Assembly (NCBI GenBank): GCA_964234715.1
Contig: OZ174278.1
Source: Podarcis melisellensis
Lineage: Eukaryota
DNA: 64,000 nt
Direction: 5' to 3' (one strand)
Part shown: positions 21,201 through 64,000 of the stretch, one piece after another
Layout: every line of letters starts with the position of its first letter
Numbering within the stretch: the stretch's first letter is position 1
The notes under the pieces: generated by a model
The model's database searches: none
The model's input: only the letters and a program-made list of their open reading frames with translations
What the model was told of the DNA's origin: nothing
Program-made: the position numbers and the translations under genes

Positions 21201-24200
21201 CACTTCATAAAATGGGAAGGGCTGCAGCTCAGAAGTAGACCATTTTCTTTGCATGGAGGTTCAATCCCCGGCAACTCCAGGTAGGGCTAAGAGAAATTCC
21301 TGCTAGAAACCCTGGAGAGCCATTGTCAGTCTAGACCAGGGCTTCACAAACTGTGGTCCACAAACATCATTCTGGTGTTCCAGTGTGCCTGTGAATTCTG
21401 TGGAATTCTATGGACTTCAACTTGTAATCAGTGTTGGATAAGAAATAAAAGAAGCAGTTAAAATGCAAATAGAAGTCACACATCATTTCGCATGTGCATT
21501 ACAATAGCTAAAATAGGCGCGTGGGGGGGGAATCATTAAGTGGCCCTTCAAGAGTCTAATTTTCAAGTGGTTCATAGAGGGGAAAGTGTTAGGGAATTAC
21601 AGGTCTAGATAATACTGAGCTGCTTTGACTAAGTGTATGGTCGTTTCCTATACTGCATAGTACTTTTCTGTTAATTGTGGAATTGGGAAATGCAGCACTG
21701 CTGCTGATGTAGTCCTAGTGCTCTGTTGTCTAGCCTTCTTAACAAGCAAAAGGTCTTATCTAGGTAGAGTTGAGGGAATCAATACAACCATTGTAGCATT
21801 TCACTATTTACCTACTTGGGGCAGAGTAGCATAGTGCAGCAATAGCTGCTTGGGCAGGTTCACCTTGAACTTTCGGGTGATCTTCGGAAACGATTATTAC
21901 CAGCCCTAAGTGAGTAGCAAATTGCATAGCTACATTTGCAAGTAATAGTAGCATACCATGGAGAAAGATTCTAGTTCAGCTTGTTCTTGTTGCACTGGAT
22001 GGGCACACTTTTTTTTCCACACCAGAGAGCTTTAAAAAATGTGATTCATTCCATCGTCTGAAGTGAGATAGTGTGTTCTGCCATTCCCATCTTATGCATG
22101 TCTGGACCAGGCTATTCTTTGCAGATAAATATGTGGCTAAGGAAAACATTGACTTGGAATCCTTTTTTTAAAAAAATATCACTTTTTGATACCAAACATG
22201 GAGACTTCTTTGCAATCAATCTCTCTAAGAAACATGCATAAACTTTTCTTTCATATGGCTACCGATACCACTTCAAATATGGTAGATTTTCTTAATGGAG
22301 AATCTATCTGATAAAAGATGAGTGTCCTCATAAGACAGCAGTCTTGTGAACACAATAAGTAAATATGGAATGGTTATTGTGAAAATAGGTTTTGATGATT
22401 ATTCTAAACAGTTTTTCTCCCTGTTTTCCTTATTAATATACTTGTCTCCTAGTTTAAAAGCATCGCTGGAGGTGCTGTCCGTGTAGACTGGGCAAACACT
22501 TTCAGTGATTGTTGTTGCCGTGTTGATTCACTGCAGTGCTCCCTGGAGTTTACAATCATATTTATTTCTCATTTGAACTACTTGTTTGATTTGGCTTTTT
22601 CAGGATATTCAACCTATTGCCCTTTAGTTTTTTTGGAATGATACTTTTTGCACAAGCTTACTATTTTCTAACTCAGGTTATTTTGGGAAATTATGGTTAA
22701 ACATTGCATTGTACAGAGACATTGTAGAAGCATAGGCTCATTAAAATGGAAAGTGTTCCTTCTGCTTGTTAAATGCCCTGGGATTTTGTTACTGTAATTC
22801 ATTATGACGGGAATACAATCAAGGAGATGGTTTAAATGTAGTTCGTGGTTTTATTAGTACTTTGGTTTCCCATCTTTTATATTACCATAAATAAGCTGTG
22901 TGTAGGAGAAATCTTTGGGCAGGAAGAGTAAGGGGCAGCATTGAGAGGCCTGCAAGTCCCCCAAAGAAGGCAAAGCCTCAACATGATGCAGACATTTATT
23001 GGGACAGTAAACTGAAATGCATTGTATACATTTCTGAGGCAAAGAAATTTCTATTCCATTTACGTTGCCTGAATAAATGATAAAATGGCTTGATTGAATC
23101 GTCACAATGTAGAATAGAAATCTTTTTCATGAAGAAGGAGATCACTTATTTACTTGAATCTAATATGCCATTGAATCTAATGCACACCTCAGTTTTCAGA
23201 ACCTTGAAACCGAAAAAGTATTTGCTGGCAAATGTAAATGTGCCATAGAATCTAATGCACACCTTAATTTTCGCAACATCATTTGACAAAAAAATGTGAG
23301 CATTAGATTCAAGTAAATACAGCATGATGGACATACTTTATTTTGTAATGAATTTCTGCACTTGCCTTTTTCGGGACTTAAAGTCCTCTCTTTTTTAACT
23401 TCCTGAGAGGATTTGTTTTCTTCTTATATTCTAAAAGTTTTTTGTCTCCTGTTTTATTAGATTTTCTCACATTTTTCATGTCATTTGGATTCTTTATACA
23501 TAGTTCATAGTTTAATATATGATCAAGTTGCATGGATGACCCATTCATTTTGGTCCCAGGGAACAGCACTAAAAACTGTTGTGTTTGGAAAATATGATGT
23601 TGCAGGTAAGCTACTAGTAGTTGGATTTGTTCTTTGCTATTTGCACCACTTTTATATAATGTTATCCAAAAGAATACAAAGATAAAGTGTGTACAACTGA
23701 ATGTTGCTGAGTGGGCAGAGTTTGTAGCTCAGAACTGGGGTATACATTTATAACTTTCATTAGGCTTCTGAAACTTGATTTCTGGAAATATTTGCTCAGA
23801 TGGCTAAACATATTATGATGCTATGCCATATTGGCAACAAGATTCTTGTCAACAAGTCAATTAAAAATGGTGAATGTTGTATGTAAATAGTTCAAATGAG
23901 TTTGTGAGCTATATAAAAACTGGAAGAATGTCTGTAATTGACAAGAGAGCTAAACTTCCATTTTTTAAATGACTTCTTTTTTAAAGGTTTTTAATCTTGT
24001 ACCATGTAATTGTTTAAACTCTTCAGCCTCGGAAGGTTTGCTGAGTAACCGCAAAATACAGTGATTTTTAACAGGTGTGTGTTGCAGTCTAGCATGGTTT
24101 TGAAACACTTGAAGCAGATGTAAGCTTCTGAACTTGATGCATCCAGGGGAATCATGACACAGGAAGCTTCATATGGTAAAGGTTTTAAAGGGTACATACA

Positions 24201-28900: not shown

Positions 28901-31900
28901 TGGATCTTGTTTTAGAGACCCAGATATTCGTAGAAAAACTTTTTGATGCTGTGAATACAAAGAGCTATCTACCTCCACCAGAGCAGCCGACATCGGGAAG
29001 CCTGAAATCAGACTTTTTTCAGCATCAGGAAAAAGAAACTAAGAAGGAAGAGGTAGGGATCAGTCATGCACCCTCTTCTTAATGCGTATCTTGCAATTTG
29101 TGTCTGTATGTTTAATCTGTTTTCAGTTACAATGCATTTAAATGCCAATTTCTTAAAGCTCAATACTTTTGATAGGTGATTGTTGAGGATAAACTTCCCT
29201 TGGTGACTCTTAACTACATGATATAGTGAACCTTATAGAATGAAGCTATGGGTGTTACTATTGGATCGAGGGTGTGAGACTAGTATTTACAGGTGCAATA
29301 TTTGTTTGGAGAACCTTGAGCAAGAGTGGATTATCACATATATGTCTAAAAACCACCCTTCATCCAAAGTTCACAGAGCGATTTGCAATATAAAATCACA
29401 AAAGGACATACCATGGTAACAAACAAAAGCAATACCTCCCAGTTTAAAAGGTCATTGATTGTTTAATTAACCCAAGGCATGCGAGAAGTGGAATTTTTTG
29501 CCTGATGCCTCTTCTGAACTTCAAATTCTCATGTCAAAGCATCTTCTTTGTTACAAAGATGTGCAGTTCTAAGGACTGAGGTTGGCGTAGAATTCTTGAG
29601 AAGGATTTTGAAATGGTTCTATTTTATTTGGTTGCTGGATGTTTCTCTGGGTGCTATACTCTTGTCTGATTTTCCTTTTCCTTCTTTATCAAGGTCATTA
29701 AAGAGGAAGAGCGAGAGAAAAAGTTTTCTAGAAGGCTAAACCATAGTCCCCCTCAGTCAAGTTCACGCTATCGAGAAACCAGGTGATCATGTATTCTGTC
29801 CCTTGTAGTAAAAACCAGGAGAGGTTATTTAACAAAGTTTTCATGTTGTTTTTTACTGGCTTTGCCTTCCTTTTTCATGTATAAATGTTTTGAGGTGGAT
29901 TTAGTTACATTGTTTGCTGTTACAGCAGTTTGAAACAAATTATATGGTAAGGATACAAAGGTATAAATGAGCAAGTCTCCATGTGTAATACATACAGAGC
30001 ACAATCCAAATTTTGTAATTTTTAATGAAGTTTTTATAGATACATAAGGGAGTGTGCTTTCAAACATAGCTATCTCCTTCTACCTGACAGTTTTGAAGTT
30101 AAAGAGCACCTTAGTGAATTTTGTAGTACAAAATTGTCAACCTCTGAATTTTCCTACAACGACTCTGCATCATCAGTGTTATTTACACCCACTTAAATGG
30201 ATGGTGATTGTCTTGAGTCAATATACATTTTGTATGATATATTGGGGGAAATGCACAACACTTGCATCTGCAGGAAAGCACCCAACTATTCACAGATTAT
30301 TGCATTTGAATTAGGATTTGCCTTTGGTATGCATCCATTTTTCATGGAAGCAAATCCTGCCTTGGCTACCACTTAGAATGTCTGAGCTCATGAAGGTCTA
30401 GGCTGCATATCAAACAGTGGAAATATAAGCCACTTTACAATACATTGCTGGGTTATTTGAAGTATTCTCTCCCCTTTCATTTGCTTTGTTTTCTCTTATG
30501 AGAGTCTACATCGGGGCGGACTTTTTTCTCTGCTCATGTGTTTTCAATGAGAGTAGGAGGGAAACTTGCATTATTCTAGGTGCATTTTGTGACGTGGAAT
30601 GTCATTATTGTGAGCAGCTTCTCAGCTCTGGGTGCAGTGCTGCACCTGAGATTTCAGATTAAAACTTCAGAATGGAAGGAAAGGAGGACTTTTTTCTGCC
30701 TCCCCTCTTTCAACTACTCTCTGAAGTCTGGAGAAGAGACCTGTGAAAAATGAGCATAATATTTTAGCTGCAGTTCATTCATTTTCAGCTTTGTATTCTT
30801 GTTATAAAACAGCACTCTGAGACGTTTCGTTGATGTGCCCATGACCTAGGTTTAAGGTGTCATGGAGCTCCTAGCTTTCCTATCTTAGTTTCTAACACTG
30901 GCGCTGTGCTATTGGTATTCCAGTTTGCTTCTAATATACAGTAACAGAGCTTCATGTCCTTGAGCTCAGAAACGCAAATGGCATAGCATGTTCTTGTATC
31001 TATGGGGAGTTCATGGGGGAGGGGATAGGAGTGTAAGTTAAGGCTGGGATATACCGCTTTTCAACATCACAGTGTATCACCAGCCAAACATTACAATATA
31101 GTAATGCATCGTGATGATGAAAAATGGAGGGGTGGAACAAGCTACATCGACCCCTGGCGCCTCAGGGGGCCGGGGCCGATGCAGTTCGTTTTCCCTTCAG
31201 CGTTCTGAGTGCTGGCAGCAGAGGGACTCCAGAGCGGTGGTGGATTCACTCATGATATACTGCTCAGAAAAATGCCATTGTGCTCTGGCCCTCAGACCAG
31301 TCCTGGGCGATGTATTGATACCTGAACCAGGGCTTTTTTTCAGCTGGAACTCACCAGAACTTAGTTCCACCACCTCTTTCTAGAAAAATAGCACTGCCCC
31401 ACACTATATAGCTTTTAAAATGGCTTGTGGTAGGTGATAACTGGTGCTGGTTCAAAGTTTGGTTTTGCCCAGAATTGGCACTTAAAATAGTGTTTGCGTT
31501 CATTTTAAAAATATTTTCACTGATTCTGATACAAATGGTTACACTCTTATATTTGGTATGGATTTTCTGTTTAGAGCCTAGAATTTATTTCTGTGTAACA
31601 ATCCAAAATATTTAGAAGCAGGGATGAAAGAAAGAAAGAGGAGCGTTCTCGCAAGAGAGACTACGACCGGAATCCCCCGCGAAGAGAGTCCTATAGAGAC
31701 CGCTACAACAGAAGAAGGGGGCGGAGCCGGAGCTACAGCAGGAGTCGCAGCAGAAGCTGGAGCAAGGAGAGGTTGCGGGATCGAGACCGCGACAGGACCA
31801 GGAGTCGAAGTAGAAGTAGAACAAGGAGCAGAGGTGAGCGATGCTCTGCACAGGCTGACTTGCAGCATTGCAATTCTTTTTGTAATCTGCTTTAAAGGCT

Positions 31901-40900: not shown

Positions 40901-43900
40901 AAAGCAATGGAAGAATGAGAACATCTGCACTTAAACATTTAAAAATGGTATTGGGGTGAAAAGTTCATTTTGAAATGTTCATGTGCTGCTATAAAGATCT
41001 GCTCTTCTTTTTAAGGTAATGCAGCCTTTAGCTCAACAGCCCATTTTACCTGTTGTGAAGCAGTCTGTCAAGGAACGATTAGGTCCAGTACCTGCCAGTA
41101 ACATTGAGCCTGCTGAAGCTCAGAGTGCCAGTACAGAAGCTGTTCAGGTGGGTATAATATTTGTTTTCCAAAATATTAAGAGATCTGTAAAACTAAACTG
41201 AATTTTCCCTTTGATAAAGGGTTCTATTTAGCAGAAATTGGTGGCCTTTTTTTAATAAACATACTGAAATTTATAGATGGTTTTTCCCCCCTAATACAGA
41301 CTACTGGTAAAAAATCATGTTTCAATTTGTGAACCAGGTTAGAGGCTCTTTAAAAAAACTCCCTTTCACAGCCCTAGACGATAACTGACATAATACTCTT
41401 GTGATATACTGTTTTATCAAAGATGAAAGATCTGTCTTTTATGCTGCTGGTTGGGTAATATTAAAAGTCTTGGTACAAAATACATATCATACCAATATTG
41501 GAAAATGTTAATTATTTTACAAGCAAAACCTATCCACTTAAGCAAAGTTCTTTATGTGGAAAAATATGGGCAAATCAATTTTTATTTTCTGTTTTTATGG
41601 AACTTTGGAAAGCAATGTCATTTTCTCACATGTTTTAGGGAGATTGAGGTAGTGACATGGCACTGCTATTTTTTTGCGATATCTGTGTGCTTCCCATAAC
41701 TCCTAATTCCATTATAAGATTATCTTAACGGTGTGCCCTCTAAAGAAAATGCAGAGAGCACACTGTTGAGTTGAATTGTATTCACGTTTGTTAAATCGGT
41801 TTGCAATCTGTCTTCATGCAGTTCTTGGTATATTATCCAAACGAGAACTACTGCACAGCTTCAGCCTGGGTGTGGAAACCATATGACCTTAGTTGGAGGA
41901 AAGGGGGTTGGTTCATCGATGCCTTGATGCGCTCTTCTTCATCCTAGCCTCTCCACAGCCCCTTTTGAAAGCTTTGTTGCTGCATCTCATTGGCCTGCTC
42001 TTCCCAAGCATTTTGGAGCATGGCTTCCAAGCTGCTGACATCTCTCTGCCAACCCTTAAGGTCCTGGAAATCTACAGGGTCTTGTGATAATGCAGGAGGA
42101 TGTGTTACCATGGTGCTCTGACAACTTTTCACTACCTTGACCTCCTTGTTGCTGGGATAGGCACCTGCCATGCCAGCAATGGAGCTCCTGAATCCTACCA
42201 CATCCAGCAAAAGGTGGGCGGGACAGATTCTTGAACCTGTTGGCCATGACTGTTAAAGTGGTGCTCCTTACTCTCGTACACTGCAAGCACCTTTTCTTTC
42301 AACCTCATGGAGGCTGTACTAGATCCATCACTCCGGTCTACCTACCAACCAGGCCAGCCTTTCTAACTGAACTTAAAAGAATATTTGAAAATGCGAAGCT
42401 TAAGAAATAATGGCTTTGCTTATAGCTCCAGTTAAAGTGAGAAGTGCCCGTGCTTAGTTTAAAAATACATGATCACAAACTATTTTTTTTAAATTCTTTT
42501 TCCTAGAATGTAACAAAACTGTCTGTGAAGGAAAGGCTGGGCTTTGTACCTAAACCACCTACTCCAGCCACTGAAAAGGTAAGGAAATAATCGTGCCCTT
42601 GAACTGTCACATAGCAATAATATCACATGCACACTTAGCATAGGTGCTTCTAATGTCCATTAAACATGTGAATGCAAAATGATTGCATGCTTCTCCTCCT
42701 CCTCCTCCTCTTCCTCCTCCTCCTTCCAATGAATAGAGCTCTGCAGTGAATTGAACACAACTAAACCTTGCTGACAAAGTTAAGATGAAATAAAGTTTTC
42801 AGTATATATAGGCGTCTTCATGAAACCTAAATGGTTGCGGTTTGGGCAGGAGCTTGCATGACAGGGTTATCATTTGTAATACTAAATTGAGATTGGGCCT
42901 GTGAATGAAGAGTGGACAAAATTATGGTCCGTTGGAAATGGCCTCTGAGATCTGGTGACAGGCATCCCTTACCGTGATTCTACTTCTTTGGAGGTCTAGG
43001 ATATTCAATAAGAGCTGGAACTGCATGGGTGAGCTGCCTTCTTCCTGAAAACTCTGAATGCTCTTAGTGAGTGAGGGGTAGCTTCTGCTGAATTCTGCAT
43101 TTTGCTTTCGGTGTTGCTTTTGCTGTTGCCTTACTGCTTGCCCAGTCTGCTTGGGTACATGACCTGCATCTCGCAGGATTGAGATGCCGCTCCCTTCTAC
43201 AGCTCTTCTGTTCTGCTTGGTGAAAACTGCATGATAGAAAGGGGAAAGAGAGGTTGTCTGGAATGGGTGCAGCATCTTCATCTACTGCTGCCCTTGGATT
43301 GTGGACTTAGCTTCTTGCCTTTGCTGAACCAATATACATGAAATGTGCTTCAGGATCATTTGACTTGGATAAAATTGCTCACACTTAGTGCTATAAGCTT
43401 TCTGAAAGCTAGTTGGAAGCCCTGTTAACATCTTACTTGTATGTTGGACATAAAAGCACATAGAGCAAGGAGCAGAGCTATGCTTTTAGGCCTGCCCACA
43501 GCATTGTGTGTTTTTCCTTCTCCCCACAAATGTAGCACTATGTGTGGTTGTGTTAACAAATGGCCCAATGTGCAGACTCTTGCTCACGAGTAGTGGCTCC
43601 ACATGATCTACATGATCAGGTGTTCTGATTGAGTGCAGCGGGAACTCAACATGTTGGGCTTTTTGTTCATACAACATTTGATGGTTTTTGAGGAGTGGGG
43701 AAAGACTCAGGTCATGCTAAGAACACAGCCCAGGTGCCTGTTCTAAATATGTATGCCCTACTTGCAAGTAATGTGTGAATAGGGTCAGTGTTGCAGAAAA
43801 GGGGGTGGGAGAATAACCTTAAATTGTGGTCTTGCATGTTTGTGAATGCTTAAAATAGATTTGACACCCTAGAATTCATTTCTAGTGCATGTTAAAGGAA

Positions 43901-46900
43901 TATTTTGAAAATGGTTTCCTTCTATAGGTGTTATCTACTTCTACTTTGACATAGCTTCAATATACATATTAACAAACTGTTTGGCTTGGTGGCGTTGCTT
44001 CTGTATTTGATGACGCACAATACAAAATAAGACTGGTTCTGAATTTTTTATTTGTGAATCCTTTCGTTTGTGACACAGTGTGAGGCAAGAGAGTTAACAC
44101 CTTTCCCTCCTTTATTGTTTTTTTCCTGCGTGTGGGTCGGGTGACGAATAAGATCTGTGCTAAGTTTATGGAGTGTATTTTTGAGACTTGTTTCTTAGAC
44201 CGTAATATTCAGTACTGTATAGCAAAACTCTCTTGAAGCCGAGAAATGTTTAAAAGCAATTTTGTATGGCAGGGTGGCGATCTGCCGTTCAAAGGGGAAA
44301 GTCAACAATTCCACTGGACATCCTCAGACGTTAAGCAACAACCATTTGGGAGTGAGCGGGGTAGGGATTGGCGGAGAATCTGCTACTAGGTTTTACTGTG
44401 CTAGGAATTTCTGAGAAGAACATTAATTTCTGTATAGTTTGTGTTTTTCAGTGAAAGACTTTTTAGCAATATAGAAATTCTTAGATTTGCTAAGCAGATA
44501 TCTCCCTTGGCTATAGAGCTTCTATATCCTAGGGTCCTGTAGTCAGAAGAGTACTTATGTGTCTTGCTTGTATACTTGGGTGTAAGTGATCAACTTGTTC
44601 CACAGTGAGAATGAATCTCTCCCCAAGTCAATTTTACTGAGTTGTTGTGTTTCATCCTCCAATACTGCATAATGCTTGGCTTGCATGCAGCTTGGCTTGC
44701 TTGTTTATTTGAGCTGTATGTTTTTTAACCAACCATATTCCATGTTGGATATAATGCTTCTTTCTAGGATGCTAGGGACATACAAACATCTCGGGCAATT
44801 GCTGGCAGCTGGGAATTGATCTTATTAGCTATACTCCAGCTGTGGATTTCTATGACTTTGTAACTACATCACTTGCCAGCACTTAAAATATTCACCCCGA
44901 AATAAGTGAAAAAATGGGAACTCCCATTTCTTAATTAACTGATTATATTGCATAGTCTGATTTATATAGAAACTGCCAGGCACAACTTTCCTGCTGAAAC
45001 AGAGGCACATGTTGATAAAGCTCAAGTAGATTGTTTTCTACAACACATGGAAAACAATTCTGGAATTCTGACTTTAGAGGCAGTCCTAGCCTGTCTTTAA
45101 ATTGACATGAGTTTGTTTACTCCATTTTTTATGTTCATGCCATCTTTGCAATCACAGCAACAAGCGTCTGTCTTGGAGTAATATACTTTGAATCCTATAT
45201 TTACGAATTCTTTATTTACTAGCAAAATAAAATGGTTTCCTTCTGTAGGTGTTGTCTACTTCTACTGGCTTGACAAAAACAGTGTATAACCCAGCTGCTT
45301 TGAAAGCAGCGCAGAAAATGTTGCCTGTTGTTAACAGTTCCATGCTAGATTCTAGTGAAGCACAGAAGAAAAAACAGGTAAATTGAACTCTGCTTATTTA
45401 TAAAACAGCAATAATTTATTTAGAAATTTGCAACATCTAGAACATAGTTTGTCATGATTGCTTATTCCTGAAGAAGCTGGATACTGTGCCTTTGCCAGAA
45501 TCTCTGTCAAGTTCTGAAAATTATTTCAAAAGTTGTAGTTTGAGATGTTTTGTTGGTGCACCTTCTCAGTAAAGGCTAAACCTGAATCTGCTTTCATGGA
45601 CACATTTTAGGAAGAGGGGTAATTTTCTCTTTGCTACCTAAGGCAGTGGGTTGCTAGATGCCATTTGATTATCTTACTTGGCTTCTAGGGTTGCAGAAGA
45701 TATAGTACTCAGACCAATTGCTAGAATTTAGTTGTGTGAATTATTTTTCTATTTCATAATATTTATATACTGCTTGAATGTAAGAAAAACCCCCAAAGCG
45801 ATTTACAAAAAGATTAGACCGTTGTAATTGCAGTTGTGCTTGTAGGTGAAGGATGCCTTTCTTACAGTGGGTCAGGCCAGATGCAAGCTAAAGCTTTCTG
45901 ATCATCTAACAACGATTAGAATGAAGATGCTCGCTTTTCTGCGTCTTCCCCTCTTTTTAACAGATTCCCTTCCCTTCCATTTTTCGAGCTAACTGTGCTA
46001 TAGTGTCCTGTCCTCGCTAGTGTGCTTGCTAAAAATGCTCTACTCCAAATCAGTTGCAGCCAAGGTTAGCAGTGGATTTGTAAACTGAAGGTTGAGCAGT
46101 TCATGGCTAGTGGAAATTCAGGTGCAGATTTAGTGCTATATCAGCCTTATAAAGCAAGATGGAAGGAGGATTTATGTGCAGAAGCAAAGGAAGAATGTAG
46201 GGGAAGTTAGATAGGAGTTACTCATATCTTGTGACTTTCATTAGACTTGGTTTGGTGCCTAACTTCTGGTATTCAGCGCCTACATAGAAATAATACCATC
46301 AGGAATTACGTCTGGCCCGCTAAATCCCTGTACTGTGGACAAAAGAAGACAAACGATGTCCTCTAAACAATAAAGTACAATGAGCTATTTGAAGATCTTA
46401 CACTCAAAAGCGTGAAAGAAACATCTTCAGTACCAATTACTGAAATGCCCTTAGCCCCAAGTAGCAGTTTAATCTTGTGTTGATCTTAAGGACAGAACTT
46501 TGTTTCATGTTACATTTTACAGTAGTATGTATTTTCTGCTGCTGTTCTTCTTGCATAGCTTTCTGAGTCGTCAGTTTTCTTCACCTTTTTTACCAATGCA
46601 CTTCATCTTTGGGTGTTTTCATCTCCCTTTTCTAGAATTAAATAATCCTGAGCAATCTTCCTTGAGCTGCTGCTTCTCTTAACGTCTTACATTTTCTCAT
46701 TATCCTTGGAGAGGAGACTTGTTTCTTTTTTCACTTGATTTGGACAAGTGTAAAATGTTTTATCGGCATTTTCCTTTCAGGGCTGTAAGTTTCCAACATC
46801 AGATTTGCAGTATTCTGCACAGTATTTCGCTGAAGAAACCCTAGTATAAAAACATAATATTGTGCACATTCCTTTTCAGAATGTCAAACCATTTTTCATT

Positions 46901-49900
46901 AGTTGAATTTTTTTATCAGTGTATAGTTAGGGGAAGGTGATTAGTATTTGAACTTTGCTATGGGCATGAGAATTTATTTGAATGCTGCGGTAGGTGATAA
47001 GATCTTCAGAACAGGGATGCAGGTGGTAAAATTTATCAGGAGAAGCGAACTCTGGTATTATTTATATATGTAACACCTAGTGGTAGAAATCATTTGACAT
47101 TCTGCATACTTCATTTTGCCGTAAGATAAATAAACTTGGTAAATATACTTCCTAATGTCCCAAGATGAGCAACACATCTATGTTATCTAAGTAAATCCAA
47201 TAATTCACCAATTGAAACTCTTGCATTATCCAGTTTAGTCTCCAAGCGTAACAATTTGGAATCATTTATTGACCTTTGCATTTCTCTGTATGGTCTGGAT
47301 TATTTGGGGAAAGGCCTTGAGTGATACTCAGCTAAGTTTTACTTAGAGTAGACCTCTTGGAATTAATAGCGCTTAGTCATGTTCATTAATTTAAATGGGT
47401 CTACTCTGAATAAGTTGAATAGCACCCCTTCAGTTTGGTGCCCAACTATGGTTAAGAGATGCCACATAAGGCTAATATGTGCAATACATCTGAAACATTG
47501 ACACCTAATTCTAATGTTTTAGAATTTCTATGCATATCTTCTAATAAAAGGGGGTGAGATCCATAGTTACCTGCTTTCAGAAACAAGTTTGATTTCTTAC
47601 AAATCTGGTATTAACCACTTTAGAAAGTTGTCACGATAAAAGAGTTTCTTTCACTTCTCTTGCAAGTTCAGATTTGTTTCAGCTACTACAGAAAAATCAG
47701 TAAAATAAAATTCATTTGATCAAATATTTTGTAAGGGGTGTCTTATTGCATCACATTTTCTTCAATTGTAATTCAGACATGAATGGGATTCACCTCCACT
47801 TGAAAACAACTGGCTTACTCAGTACTGTAGTCCCATTAATGTAGCAGTTCTGCAGGCTGGTTTCTTCATTTGCAGAGACCAAATATGCAGATTTCTTTCT
47901 CAGAGGCCATTGATTCAGAATGACCCAGATTTGTGTCAGATCTTTTTGTATTTAATCATTGGGAAAAGTAATTCCTCTAATTTCCTTGCATATTAATCAT
48001 ATTTGTCACCAGAAATTGGGTTTCTGGATATCTTGCTCTGAAAGTCATGATGCAGGTGGTTCAGTGCTTTAAGAAATTGTTCTTGAGGAGAACAAGCTGA
48101 TTTTGGAATAGCAAAATAGGCCACATAGGGTTACAGCGATAATTATTTCCTTAACTTAGAGTCTTACATGCTTTGTGACAAATTTTCTCTGTTAAACTGT
48201 GTTGAATTTCACTTTTGTTCAAGTTATGAAACTGAAGCACATGACTGTCATTACCGTGTCTTGCCTCAAAATGGAAAACTTTCTGCTAATATGGTTTTTT
48301 TTTTAAAAAAAACATAAATCGCAGTCACAACTGTGATGAACCAGTAAATATTTCTGTTAACATAAAACAACTTCATTGCAATTCCTTATTCAAAGAGTCA
48401 TGGAAAGTTCAAACAGAAAGGAAACAAGGAATTCAGAAGCGGTCCTAAGAATGCATTCCAGATTTAATGAATTGCATTTCCTTGCTATGTGTAGCTATTT
48501 TTCTGTAGGCTCTTAATGCATATTGGTTGGAAATCCAATATATTTTTCAATATTTTTGTTAATTTAGCTACTAGAAAGGTGCAATTTAGCCATAAAAGTT
48601 ATGCATCCTCCAGACCCCTAACTTTAGAAATGCTCCAACAAATCCTGTAAACAGCACAGAATTAGTAATCTTGGAATTCCAGAATGGCACCTGTGACAAA
48701 AAGTAATGCACAAAAAGCTCTAAATATATAAATGATGCAATCGTGCAGCATCCCCATAGCAAAGCATGGAACCTTGCACTTCCTAATCCTGAATATGGTA
48801 AGGGAGTGTACAAGTCTCCAGAGGAGCAGATATAACACAAGCATTTGGTCAACAAATATCGGTTGTCAAATGATGTAACTGCATATATTGCTGTTCTGTG
48901 TCAATTATAAATACAGGAAGAGATGATATCACATAACCATTCAAGGCGAGATTCCATGTATTGTTCTCTCAAGATGTTTGAGAACTGACATTGTGCAAGT
49001 GGTAGCATACAGAGTTTAATAATAGTAGTTGCATCAGGGGCTGAATATGATCTTTCACAAATGCAACATACCCATTGGATTCTGCTGTTGTGCTACATTA
49101 AGACATAGGCACGAGTTAGCGGTATGGCTGCCATTTTTGGAGATCACCTTCAGCGTGCCCCTGCTCAGTCACATCAGTTCTTTCCACATTATTGGTTTAT
49201 TCTAATCGGACAGAATATATGAGTAAAATGGGTGGAATTGCGCAGTTACTCATCAGCTTATGTTTAACAATGGGCGATAATAATTGTGTTTTTATGCTTC
49301 CAGGAGGCACTAAGACTTCAGCAAGACGTGAGAAAGAAAAAGCAAGAGATTTTAGAAAAGCACATTGAAACACAAAAGGTAAATATATACATTAATGCAA
49401 CTGGGCTACTGTTGAATAATATTAATAATCATTGATGTATTGTAAGACAGTGCTACTCAAAGTGGTGGTCCATGTACTGATGTTGGTCCACAAGCCATCA
49501 GTTGCTGGTCCATGACCCCATCACAGCCCAGGTTGAGTAGGATGCTTCAGGAACCAAATATTGGCATATTGTGGGTAGGTTGTTGATACACCACAGCAAC
49601 ATAGTTTGAGAAGCAATGTTGTAAGATACAGTGCTTGCTACGTCACTGTAAAATCCTGTGCTGTAAAGGTTGCTAAGCGGTGATTCAGGTGAAACACAAA
49701 TCTTACTTATCATTCCAGGGCTCATAGGGATCCCACTAAAATTAATGAATCTAGGGCGGTGTGAGCTTGTGCACACCCAGATGAAACTTTGCAAGTAAAA
49801 CAGAAAGTGGTGATGGAATTAATGGGATGGAAGCCTCTGCCTCCGTATCCTAGGTATTAAGTCTGTGTCATTTGAGTGGAATTCCGCTTGGGTCGCCAAC

Positions 49901-63751: not shown

Positions 63752-64000
63752 TTCGTCTTGCGGTTTTTTCGTCTTGTGAAGCAAGCCCATTAGCGAATTA
63801 GTGCTATTAGCGGCTTAGCGGGCTTAGCAGATCAGCTGATAAGCGGCTTAGCGGATCAGCTGATAAGCGGCTTAGCGGATCTGCTGTTAAGCGGCTTAGC
63901 GGATCAGCTGTTAAGCGGCTTAGCGGATCAGCTGATTAGCGGCTTGGGAAAAGGGGGGTAGGAAAAAAACCCCGCAGGAACTCGCAAGACATTTTCGTCT
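63752..64000 (-). mobile_element. Inverted partial copy of the 62861 MITE family carrying a 24-bp minisatellite
   Basis: cttcgtcttgcggttttttcgtcttgtgaagcaagcccatt is near the reverse complement of ~63133-63170; runs off the window end. Confidence 0.75.
63821..63945. repeat. 24-bp minisatellite x5 (GGCTTAGCGGATCAGCTGWTAAGC)
   Basis: Five contiguous units counted at 63821, 63845, 63869, 63893, 63917. Confidence 0.92.

What the first reader, a model, noticed from the sequence alone, without database searches (positions are those of the whole stretch)
43908..43954. Duplicated exon-15 splice acceptor forming a ready-made decoy/poison exon (VLSTSTLT-stop)
Seen: aaaatggtttccttctatAG|gtgttatctacttctact-ttgaca-TAG (43908-43954) is a near-exact copy of the real acceptor aaaatggtttccttctgtAG|gtgttgtctacttctactggcttgaca (45229-45275), 1.32 kb upstream in the same intron. 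The pyrimidine tract and AG are intact, the exonic substitution is synonymous, and the reading frame is kept up to an in-frame TAG at 43952-43954. A candidate donor GTGAGG lies at 44080. Inference: use of this proximal acceptor would give an NMD substrate, or a protein ending after RRM1 and lacking the coiled coil, RGG tract and RRM2. This is the unproductive-splicing logic common in RNA-binding-protein autoregulation. It could be a lineage-specific switch gated by the adjacent TGCATG motifs, or just a neutral micro-duplication.
Basis: partly seen in the sequence, partly recalled or inferred. Interest (0 to 1): 0.72.

Follow-up and report, generated by a model that had tools for sequence, protein, structure and literature searches.

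The report
Spare splice acceptor in lizard RBM26
A lizard's RBM26 gene carries a real 44-base copy of one exon's entry signal 1.3 kb upstream in the same intron, most likely an old DNA-repair patch that splicing would largely ignore; whether it is ever used as an off-switch is untested.

Summary
Window 43908-43951 copies the RBM26 exon-15 acceptor (45229-45275) 1,321 nt upstream, with 2 substitutions and a 3-nt gap, and runs into TAG after VLSTSTLT. It occurs only twice in the genome, is identical in a second sample, and lies in colinear DNA of related organisms, so it is no artefact.

It best fits a repair-mediated proximal duplication (Pace et al. 2009), a known class that includes partial exon/intron donors.

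For use: the AG scores as well as the real one (best of 154 in the intron). Paired with a donor at 44141 it makes a plausible cryptic exon.

Against a regulated switch: the proposed donor at 44080 is weaker than all 21 true donors. The copy sits in the fast-diverging part of the intron (inferred from a truncated table). One relative lacks 15 nt within 43833-43929. None of 128 fetched proteins ends this way. The seven TGCATG motifs are more simply read as regulators of cassette exon 14. The catalogued mammalian RBM26 poison exon is in intron 13.

Use in RNA was not tested. The scan has noted similar duplicated acceptors in other genomes.

The parts
43908..43951 (+). Copy of the exon-15 acceptor (20 nt of intron end incl. 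AG at 43926-43927, then 24 nt exon-like)
   Evidence: acceptor score 10.2 vs 9.1 for the real site, rank 1 of 154 AGs in intron 14
43952..43954 (+). In-frame TAG ending VLSTSTLT; not copied from the donor
45229..45275 (+). Donor of the duplication: end of intron 14 and first 27 nt of RBM26 exon 15
45249..45377 (+). RBM26 exon 15 (129 nt, phase 0-0); skipped in many annotated sauropsid isoforms
42507..42578 (+). RBM26 exon 14 (72-nt in-frame cassette exon)
   Evidence: human/mouse 72-nt cassette listed as ORF-preserving, non-NMD in PMC13078869 supplements
41016..41147 (+). RBM26 exon 13
43860..43866 (+). TTTGACA, repeated at the right end of the copy (43945-43951); possible target-site duplication or microhomology around an 85-nt insertion (inferred, found post hoc)
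   Evidence: 109 of 5,205 intronic positions have such a 7-mer repeat within 100 nt
43867..43907 (+). 41 nt between the left 7-mer and the copy; possible filler. Ends in an inverted copy (43901-43907) of the 7 nt at the donor's left edge (45223-45229). Holds TGCATG 43886 and two further AGs. No YTNAY within -18..-40 of the copied AG.
   Evidence: inverted 7-mer in 33 of 5,000 random pairs, post hoc
44080..44085 (+).
   Evidence: 2.9 bits, below 21 of 21 true donors
44141..44146 (+). Best candidate donor within 300 nt, CGG|GTGACG; would close a 213-nt stop-carrying exon 43928-44140
   Evidence: 5.7 bits, above 5 of 21 true donors; pair ranks 16 of 2,314 pseudo-exons
42684..44687 (+). Seven TGCATG (RBFOX-type) motifs in intron 14: 42684, 42855, 43022, 43228, 43833, 43886, 44682

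Best explanation
The element is a real 44-nt copy of the RBM26 exon-15 acceptor, most likely pasted 1.3 kb upstream during repair of a DNA break and likely drifting without a selected role. Inferred mechanism: a broken end in intron 14 copied about 40 nt from the nearby exon-15 boundary and rejoined through a short shared stretch (TTTGACA), leaving filler on the left. This happened before the window's organism split from its sampled relatives. The copy kept a good tract and AG but not the branch-point region or a matching donor, so it is predicted to be used rarely. Any leak would carry a stop at codon 692 and would be removed by nonsense-mediated decay at little cost.
For: Anatomy fits the class. 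It is short, direct and two-copy, with the donor 1.3 kb away. Pace et al. report 824 human cases within 5 kb, an apparent peak near 1,200 bp (which they say may be a method artefact), 4 partial exon/intron donors, microhomology 2-9 nt, filler 1-68 nt, and roughly neutral divergence. Breakpoint-like 7-mers occur on both sides (background 2% and 0.7%, post hoc). No selection is needed: 2 changes in 44 nt has P 0.62-0.85 at 3-5% lineage divergence. Versus organism B, the intron differs 1.3% near exon 14, 2.0% near exon 15, 6.2% at 43547-43867 and an inferred 5.4% at 43868-44295, which holds the copy. Depth and gap arithmetic puts 15 missing nt within 43833-43929 and 5 within 44134-44235 in organism C. 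There is no YTNAY within -18..-40, where the real site has two. The donor at 44080 is weak. 0 of 128 fetched proteins contain STSTLT. Flanks show no protein-level exon-15 likeness (324 of 500 controls score as well).
Against: The copied AG scores 10.2 vs 9.1 for the real one; only 4 of 2,398 intronic AGs in the gene (the copy included) reach it. With donor 44141 the pair outranks 6 of 20 true exons. Organisms B and E show no deletion across 43828-44031, so the copy has persisted. Such doublets are rare here: 0 in 400 kb of sampled genome. RBM26 has a catalogued poison exon in mammals, so the gene does use this logic. 8 of 19 true acceptors listed also lack a YTNAY at -18..-40. Protein databases would not show an NMD isoform. 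The 5.4% figure rests on how a truncated table was ordered, and the letters of the copy in B, C and E were not seen. No empty site was seen.
Confidence: 0.68

Rival explanations
1. The copy has been recruited as a lizard-specific poison exon (43928-44140 or an extended exon 15). It would lower RBM26 through NMD and likely be repressed by RBFOX bound at -42 and -95.
For: Strongest AG in the intron; pair with 44141 ranks 16 of 2,314 pseudo-exons. Stop lies 186 nt before that donor. TGCATG at 43886 and 43833; upstream RBFOX binding correlates weakly with repression (PMC3967051 passages). No change is listed at 43833-43838 in B. Mammalian RBM26 has an NMD_in exon.
Against: No local excess of conservation (inferred 5.4%). 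Deletions in C fall in the bins that hold the acceptor and the 44141 donor (exact places unknown). The GTAGGG donor at 44361 lies next to stretches replaced in B and C. The TGCATG cluster is explained by exon 14; two of the seven motifs are lost in single relatives (42855 in B, 43228 in E).
Confidence: 0.15
2. The copy is a non-splicing decoy that binds U2AF and shifts the balance between exon-15 inclusion and skipping.
For: Exon 15 is a cassette: 20 of 110 classifiable proteins have exon 14 without exon 15. The decoy tract is identical to the real one but for one base.
Against: Exon-15 skipping is annotated in lacertids, other lizards, pigeon, alligator and a frog. It is therefore far older than a copy only about 4.5% diverged (95% CI 0.6-15%). 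No direct evidence.
Confidence: 0.07
3. The element is the remnant of an old duplicate of the whole exon 15 (about 43928-44035), whose front end was later homogenised by gene conversion or kept by selection.
For: A colinear gapped alignment can be drawn to the exon's 3' half and donor; local P about 0.03 (11 of 400) and 0.015-0.09 with one of three scoring schemes.
Against: P 0.09-0.31 with the other two schemes; upstream flank P 0.15-0.43. No protein-level signal. The matching donor scores -2.7.
Confidence: 0.07
4. Assembly artefact or chance match.
For: None.
Against: E 1.5e-7 genome-wide. Identical in a second sample; colinear in three related organisms.
Confidence: 0.01

Closest known systems
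Repair-mediated proximal duplications (Pace et al. 2009, PMC2671141; parts 1-4 of 8 and passages read); 'doublets' of Thomas et al. (seen only as cited there)
   Same: Short two-copy duplication, donor under 5 kb away (here 1.3 kb), no poly(A) tail, possible microhomology and filler; partial exon/intron donors are on record (4 of 824).
   Different: 44 nt is below their 50-bp floor. It was not found inside an annotated transposon. No empty site was seen. No lizard was in their survey.
Mammalian RBM26 poison exon, chr13:79354004-79354081 (PMC9882217 supplement row, class NMD_in; passages read)
   Same: Same gene, stop-inducing on inclusion, next to cassette exon 14.
   Different: Lies in intron 13 (between the exons at 79354438 and 79353224) and has splice sites conserved between mouse and human. 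The lizard element is in intron 14, derives from exon 15 and shows no sign of conservation.
RBFOX2-modulated AS-NMD in RNA-binding-protein genes (PMC3967051; passages read, supplements unavailable)
   Same: RBP gene, TGCATG motifs close to a potential NMD exon.
   Different: RBM26 does not occur in the main text. Those events were shown by knockdown and CLIP; nothing comparable is shown here.
Tandem exon duplication with competing RNA structures (PMC6071210, PMC9013439; search listing only)
   Same: Duplicated exon sequence within one intron.
   Different: Only the front end is copied, it is closed by a stop, and no shared docking partner stands out.

Membership tests
Repair-mediated proximal duplication | Exactly two copies in the genome | tested here: met
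   (search skips very common words)
Repair-mediated proximal duplication | Non-tandem, donor within 5 kb on the same chromosome | tested here: met
   1,321 nt
Repair-mediated proximal duplication | No poly(A)/T tail; intron sequence copied (not retroposed) | tested here: met
   20 nt of intron are included, no tail
Repair-mediated proximal duplication | Microhomology, filler or target-site duplication at the breakpoints | tested here: inconclusive
   7-mer direct repeat and 7-mer inverted piece, background 2% and 0.7%, found post hoc
Repair-mediated proximal duplication | Empty site in an outgroup | not testable with these tools
   the relatives laid span the site; metagenome scans gave no vertebrate locus
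Regulated poison exon (AS-NMD) | Premature stop more than 50 nt upstream of a junction | tested here: met
   125 nt (44080) or 186 nt (44141)
Regulated poison exon (AS-NMD) | Usable acceptor | tested here: met
   gene-trained matrix 10.2 vs 9.1; branch point doubtful
Regulated poison exon (AS-NMD) | Usable donor | tested here: inconclusive
   44080 below all 21 true donors; 44141 above 5 of 21
Regulated poison exon (AS-NMD) | Junctions seen in RNA, rising under NMD block | not tested
   no RNA was laid on the locus
Regulated poison exon (AS-NMD) | Exon and flanks conserved above the surrounding intron | tested here: inconclusive
   leans against: inferred 5.4% vs 1.3-2.0% near true exons, deletions in organism C; table truncated, close relatives only
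Tandem duplicated / mutually exclusive exon | Homology over the whole exon with open frame | tested here: not met
   stop after 8 codons; no protein-level likeness; DNA P 0.015-0.31

The most novel reading that the evidence does not exclude
A 44-nt repair patch created, in one step, a working lineage-specific poison exon (43928-44140) in a nuclear RNA-decay factor, landing under pre-existing RBFOX sites that now gate it: a datable birth of an AS-NMD switch in lizards.
Probability: 0.13. Interest if true: 0.62.

Novelty: new member of a known kind. Interest (0 to 1): 0.2.

Why it matters
As a silent repair scar it is one more example of a documented process, useful at most as a presence/absence marker in lacertids and as a natural test of why a strong acceptor is ignored. 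If it proved used and regulated, it would be a rare datable case of a poison exon born from a single repair event, in a gene whose product serves nuclear RNA decay (PAXT; PMC7049725 passages).

Tried and rejected

Outgroup DNA: the metagenome pattern scan found 0 loci. The second scan gave one locus, L043, which is 59% GC with no match to the window and was rejected as spurious.

Truncated proteins: none among 100 hits, 25 further cluster members or 7 short hits. This is weak, as NMD isoforms are not expected there.

Competing RNA structure: the complement at 47071-47095 (I3) is not among the 10 best duplex partners of either acceptor in the gene. Rejected.

Hairpin masking of the copied tract: z -0.35 and -0.99; accessibility is within the range of true acceptors. 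Rejected.

Whole-exon duplicate: not established.

Alternative last exon: the only AATAAA or ATTAAA between the copy and exon 15 is the AATAAA at 45226, inside the real acceptor.

Pfam on single exons was uninformative. One search had two exon boundaries mis-set; one search repeats the scoring with them corrected.

Literature: six searches listed no paper on this lizard element. Supplements of PMC3967051 could not be read and may bear on RBM26; that of PMC6547761 had no RBM26 hit.

Full report
Gene and context. The window holds the whole RBM26 gene of a lacertid lizard on the + strand. The exon-13 peptide is 100% identical to Lacerta agilis and Podarcis RBM26. Exon 14 matches P. muralis fully and L. 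agilis at 87.5%. A 22-exon model with AG/GT at every boundary gives 1,009 aa. Exons 13, 14, 15 and 16 lie at 41016-41147, 42507-42578, 45249-45377 and 49304-49378, all with phase-0 ends.

The observation. 43908-43945 matches 45229-45266 at 36 of 38 nt, 1,321 nt apart. With a 3-nt gap the match runs to 43951/45275. Only these two places match in the 1.57-Gb assembly (E 1.5e-7), and 1.4 kb around the copy has no other match. A contig from a second sample of the same organism spans 42732-45450 with 8 differences, all listed and none in the copy. It is real. Splicing into 43928 would give VLSTSTLT-stop and a 691-aa or 667-aa product that keeps RRM1 and lacks the second RRM.

Age and conservation. 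Contigs of three related organisms (B, C, E; 4 of the 24 listed runs were laid) cross the site colinearly. The table of differences was cut (109 rows hidden), so I used arithmetic on it. For B the 27 gap letters are all accounted for outside the copy, and depth is full across 43828-44031 in B and E. For C the 53 gap letters close only with 15 nt missing within 43833-43929 and 5 nt within 44134-44235; the exact places are unknown. For B, 35 of 58 differences in 42400-44295 are listed, up to 43867. If the table is in positional order, 23 fall in 43868-44295. That gives 1.3% next to exon 14, 6.2% and 5.4% mid-intron, and 2.0% next to exon 15. The copy would thus sit in the least constrained part. 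The letters of the copy itself in B, C and E were not seen. Copy and donor differ at 2 of 44 sites (95% CI 0.6-15%), which needs no selection at 3-5% lineage divergence (P 0.62-0.85) but would at 15% (P 0.03). No outgroup DNA could be obtained.

Splice signals. No MaxEntScan was available, so I trained simple matrices on the gene's own 20 other acceptors and 21 donors. The copy scores 10.2 and the real site 9.1. The copy is first of 154 AGs in intron 14, and 4 of 2,398 intronic AGs, itself included, reach it. The donor at 44080 scores 2.9, below all 21 true donors. The best donor within 300 nt is 44141 (5.7, above 5 of 21). That pair ranks 16 of 2,314 pseudo-exons and above 6 of 20 true exons, so a 213-nt cryptic exon is plausible, though 15 other pseudo-exons in the gene rank higher. 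The real acceptor has YTNAY at -31 and -35. The copy has none nearer than -50, with two AGs in between; 8 of 19 true acceptors also lack one at -18..-40, so this is weak.

TGCATG. Intron 14 has 7 in 2.67 kb against 11 in the other 36.6 kb of introns (P about 2e-5). RBFOX motifs are enriched downstream of enhanced exons and upstream of repressed ones (PMC3967051 passages). The 72-nt exon 14 is a regulated, ORF-preserving, non-NMD cassette in mouse and human brain tables (PMC13078869 supplement rows). The cluster is thus explained without the copy (inference). If the sites at -42 and -95 act on the copy, they would more likely repress it. Two distal motifs are lost in single relatives.

Known RBM26 events. 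Of 128 fetched proteins, 110 could be classed: 72 have exons 14 and 15, 20 have 14 only, 18 have 15 only. A further 13 were read-through or partial and 5 were unclassified. Two of the 20 look like prediction errors (P0036, P0066). None contains STSTLT. Exon-15 skipping is annotated from lizards to pigeon, alligator and a frog, so it predates the copy. A mouse-human poison exon of RBM26 is catalogued, but in intron 13 (PMC9882217 supplement row and passages). In the lizard intron 13 the nearest candidate by size is 41372-41449, with weak sites.

Origin. Pace et al. 2009 (PMC2671141, parts 1-4 of 8 and passages) describe duplications captured from nearby DNA during break repair: 824 in human within 5 kb, 0.08-0.65 per Mb across vertebrates, 4 of 824 donors being partial exon/intron, with microhomology, filler or target-site duplication at the ends and near-neutral divergence. 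Here TTTGACA flanks an 85-nt block on both sides, and the 7 nt left of the copy are the inverted 7 nt at the donor's left edge (background 109 of 5,205 and 33 of 5,000). Both were noticed after the fact and are only suggestive. In 464 kb sampled (window plus 40 stretches of 10 kb), this pair was the only strictly two-copy near repeat of 18 near pairs. The event is uncommon per kilobase, but published densities imply hundreds per genome and a few over exon boundaries (inference).

Rejected readings. A decayed whole-exon duplicate gave P 0.015-0.31 by DNA depending on scoring and nothing at protein level (324 of 500). A shared complementary site at 47071-47095 is not among the top 10 duplexes. 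Hairpin masking is not above shuffles.

Verdict. Shown: the copy, its strength as an acceptor by a simple matrix, its presence in a second sample and colinearity in relatives. Inferred: repair origin, neutrality, rare use, NMD of leaks. Untested: any use in RNA. Best reading: a repair-mediated duplication with no selected role (0.68). Recruited poison exon 0.15, decoy 0.07, old whole-exon duplicate 0.07, artefact 0.01. Six literature searches listed nothing on this element. The scan's own notes hold similar duplicated acceptors in other genomes and none for this locus; they are unchecked and were not counted as support. The labels YTNAY, the 50-nt NMD rule as applied to lizards, and RGG/coiled-coil are from general knowledge; the coiled coil was not tested.

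Noticed in passing
window 45249-45377: Exon 15 is skipped in frame in annotated isoforms of many lizards, pigeon, alligator and a frog (20 of 110 classifiable proteins, two doubtful), whereas mammalian entries mostly skip exon 14: a possible lineage difference in RBM26 splicing.
   Followed up: partly
window 42579-45248: Seven TGCATG in intron 14 (P about 2e-5 against the other introns); the first 1.1 kb of the intron is the most conserved part between relatives (1.3%).
   Followed up: partly
window 41148-42506: Mammals have a catalogued 77-78-nt RBM26 poison exon in this intron; lizard candidates by size are weak (41372-41449) or nearer exon 13 (41235-41306, acceptor 7.6, donor 4.9, NAGNAG). 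Homology could not be tested.
   Followed up: partly
window 23461-23605, 23987-24074, 46636-46784, 46880-46989: Intronic AG...GT pairs that outscore the finding's best pseudo-exon in the gene-trained matrix (which had two mis-set training boundaries).
   Followed up: no
window 47339-47413: 29-nt inverted repeat, 79% complementary, 17-nt loop, in intron 15.
   Followed up: no
window 31803-31847: The end of exon 5 is the best antisense partner of both acceptors (about -38 kcal/mol), through a purine-rich Arg/Ser-coding repeat; probably low-complexity chance.
   Followed up: no
window 42684-42731: A CTC-type microsatellite directly follows the first TGCATG downstream of exon 14 and varies in length between relatives.
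   Followed up: no
window 63794-63958: Tandem repeat reading SGLADQL in one frame, downstream of RBM26.
   Followed up: no
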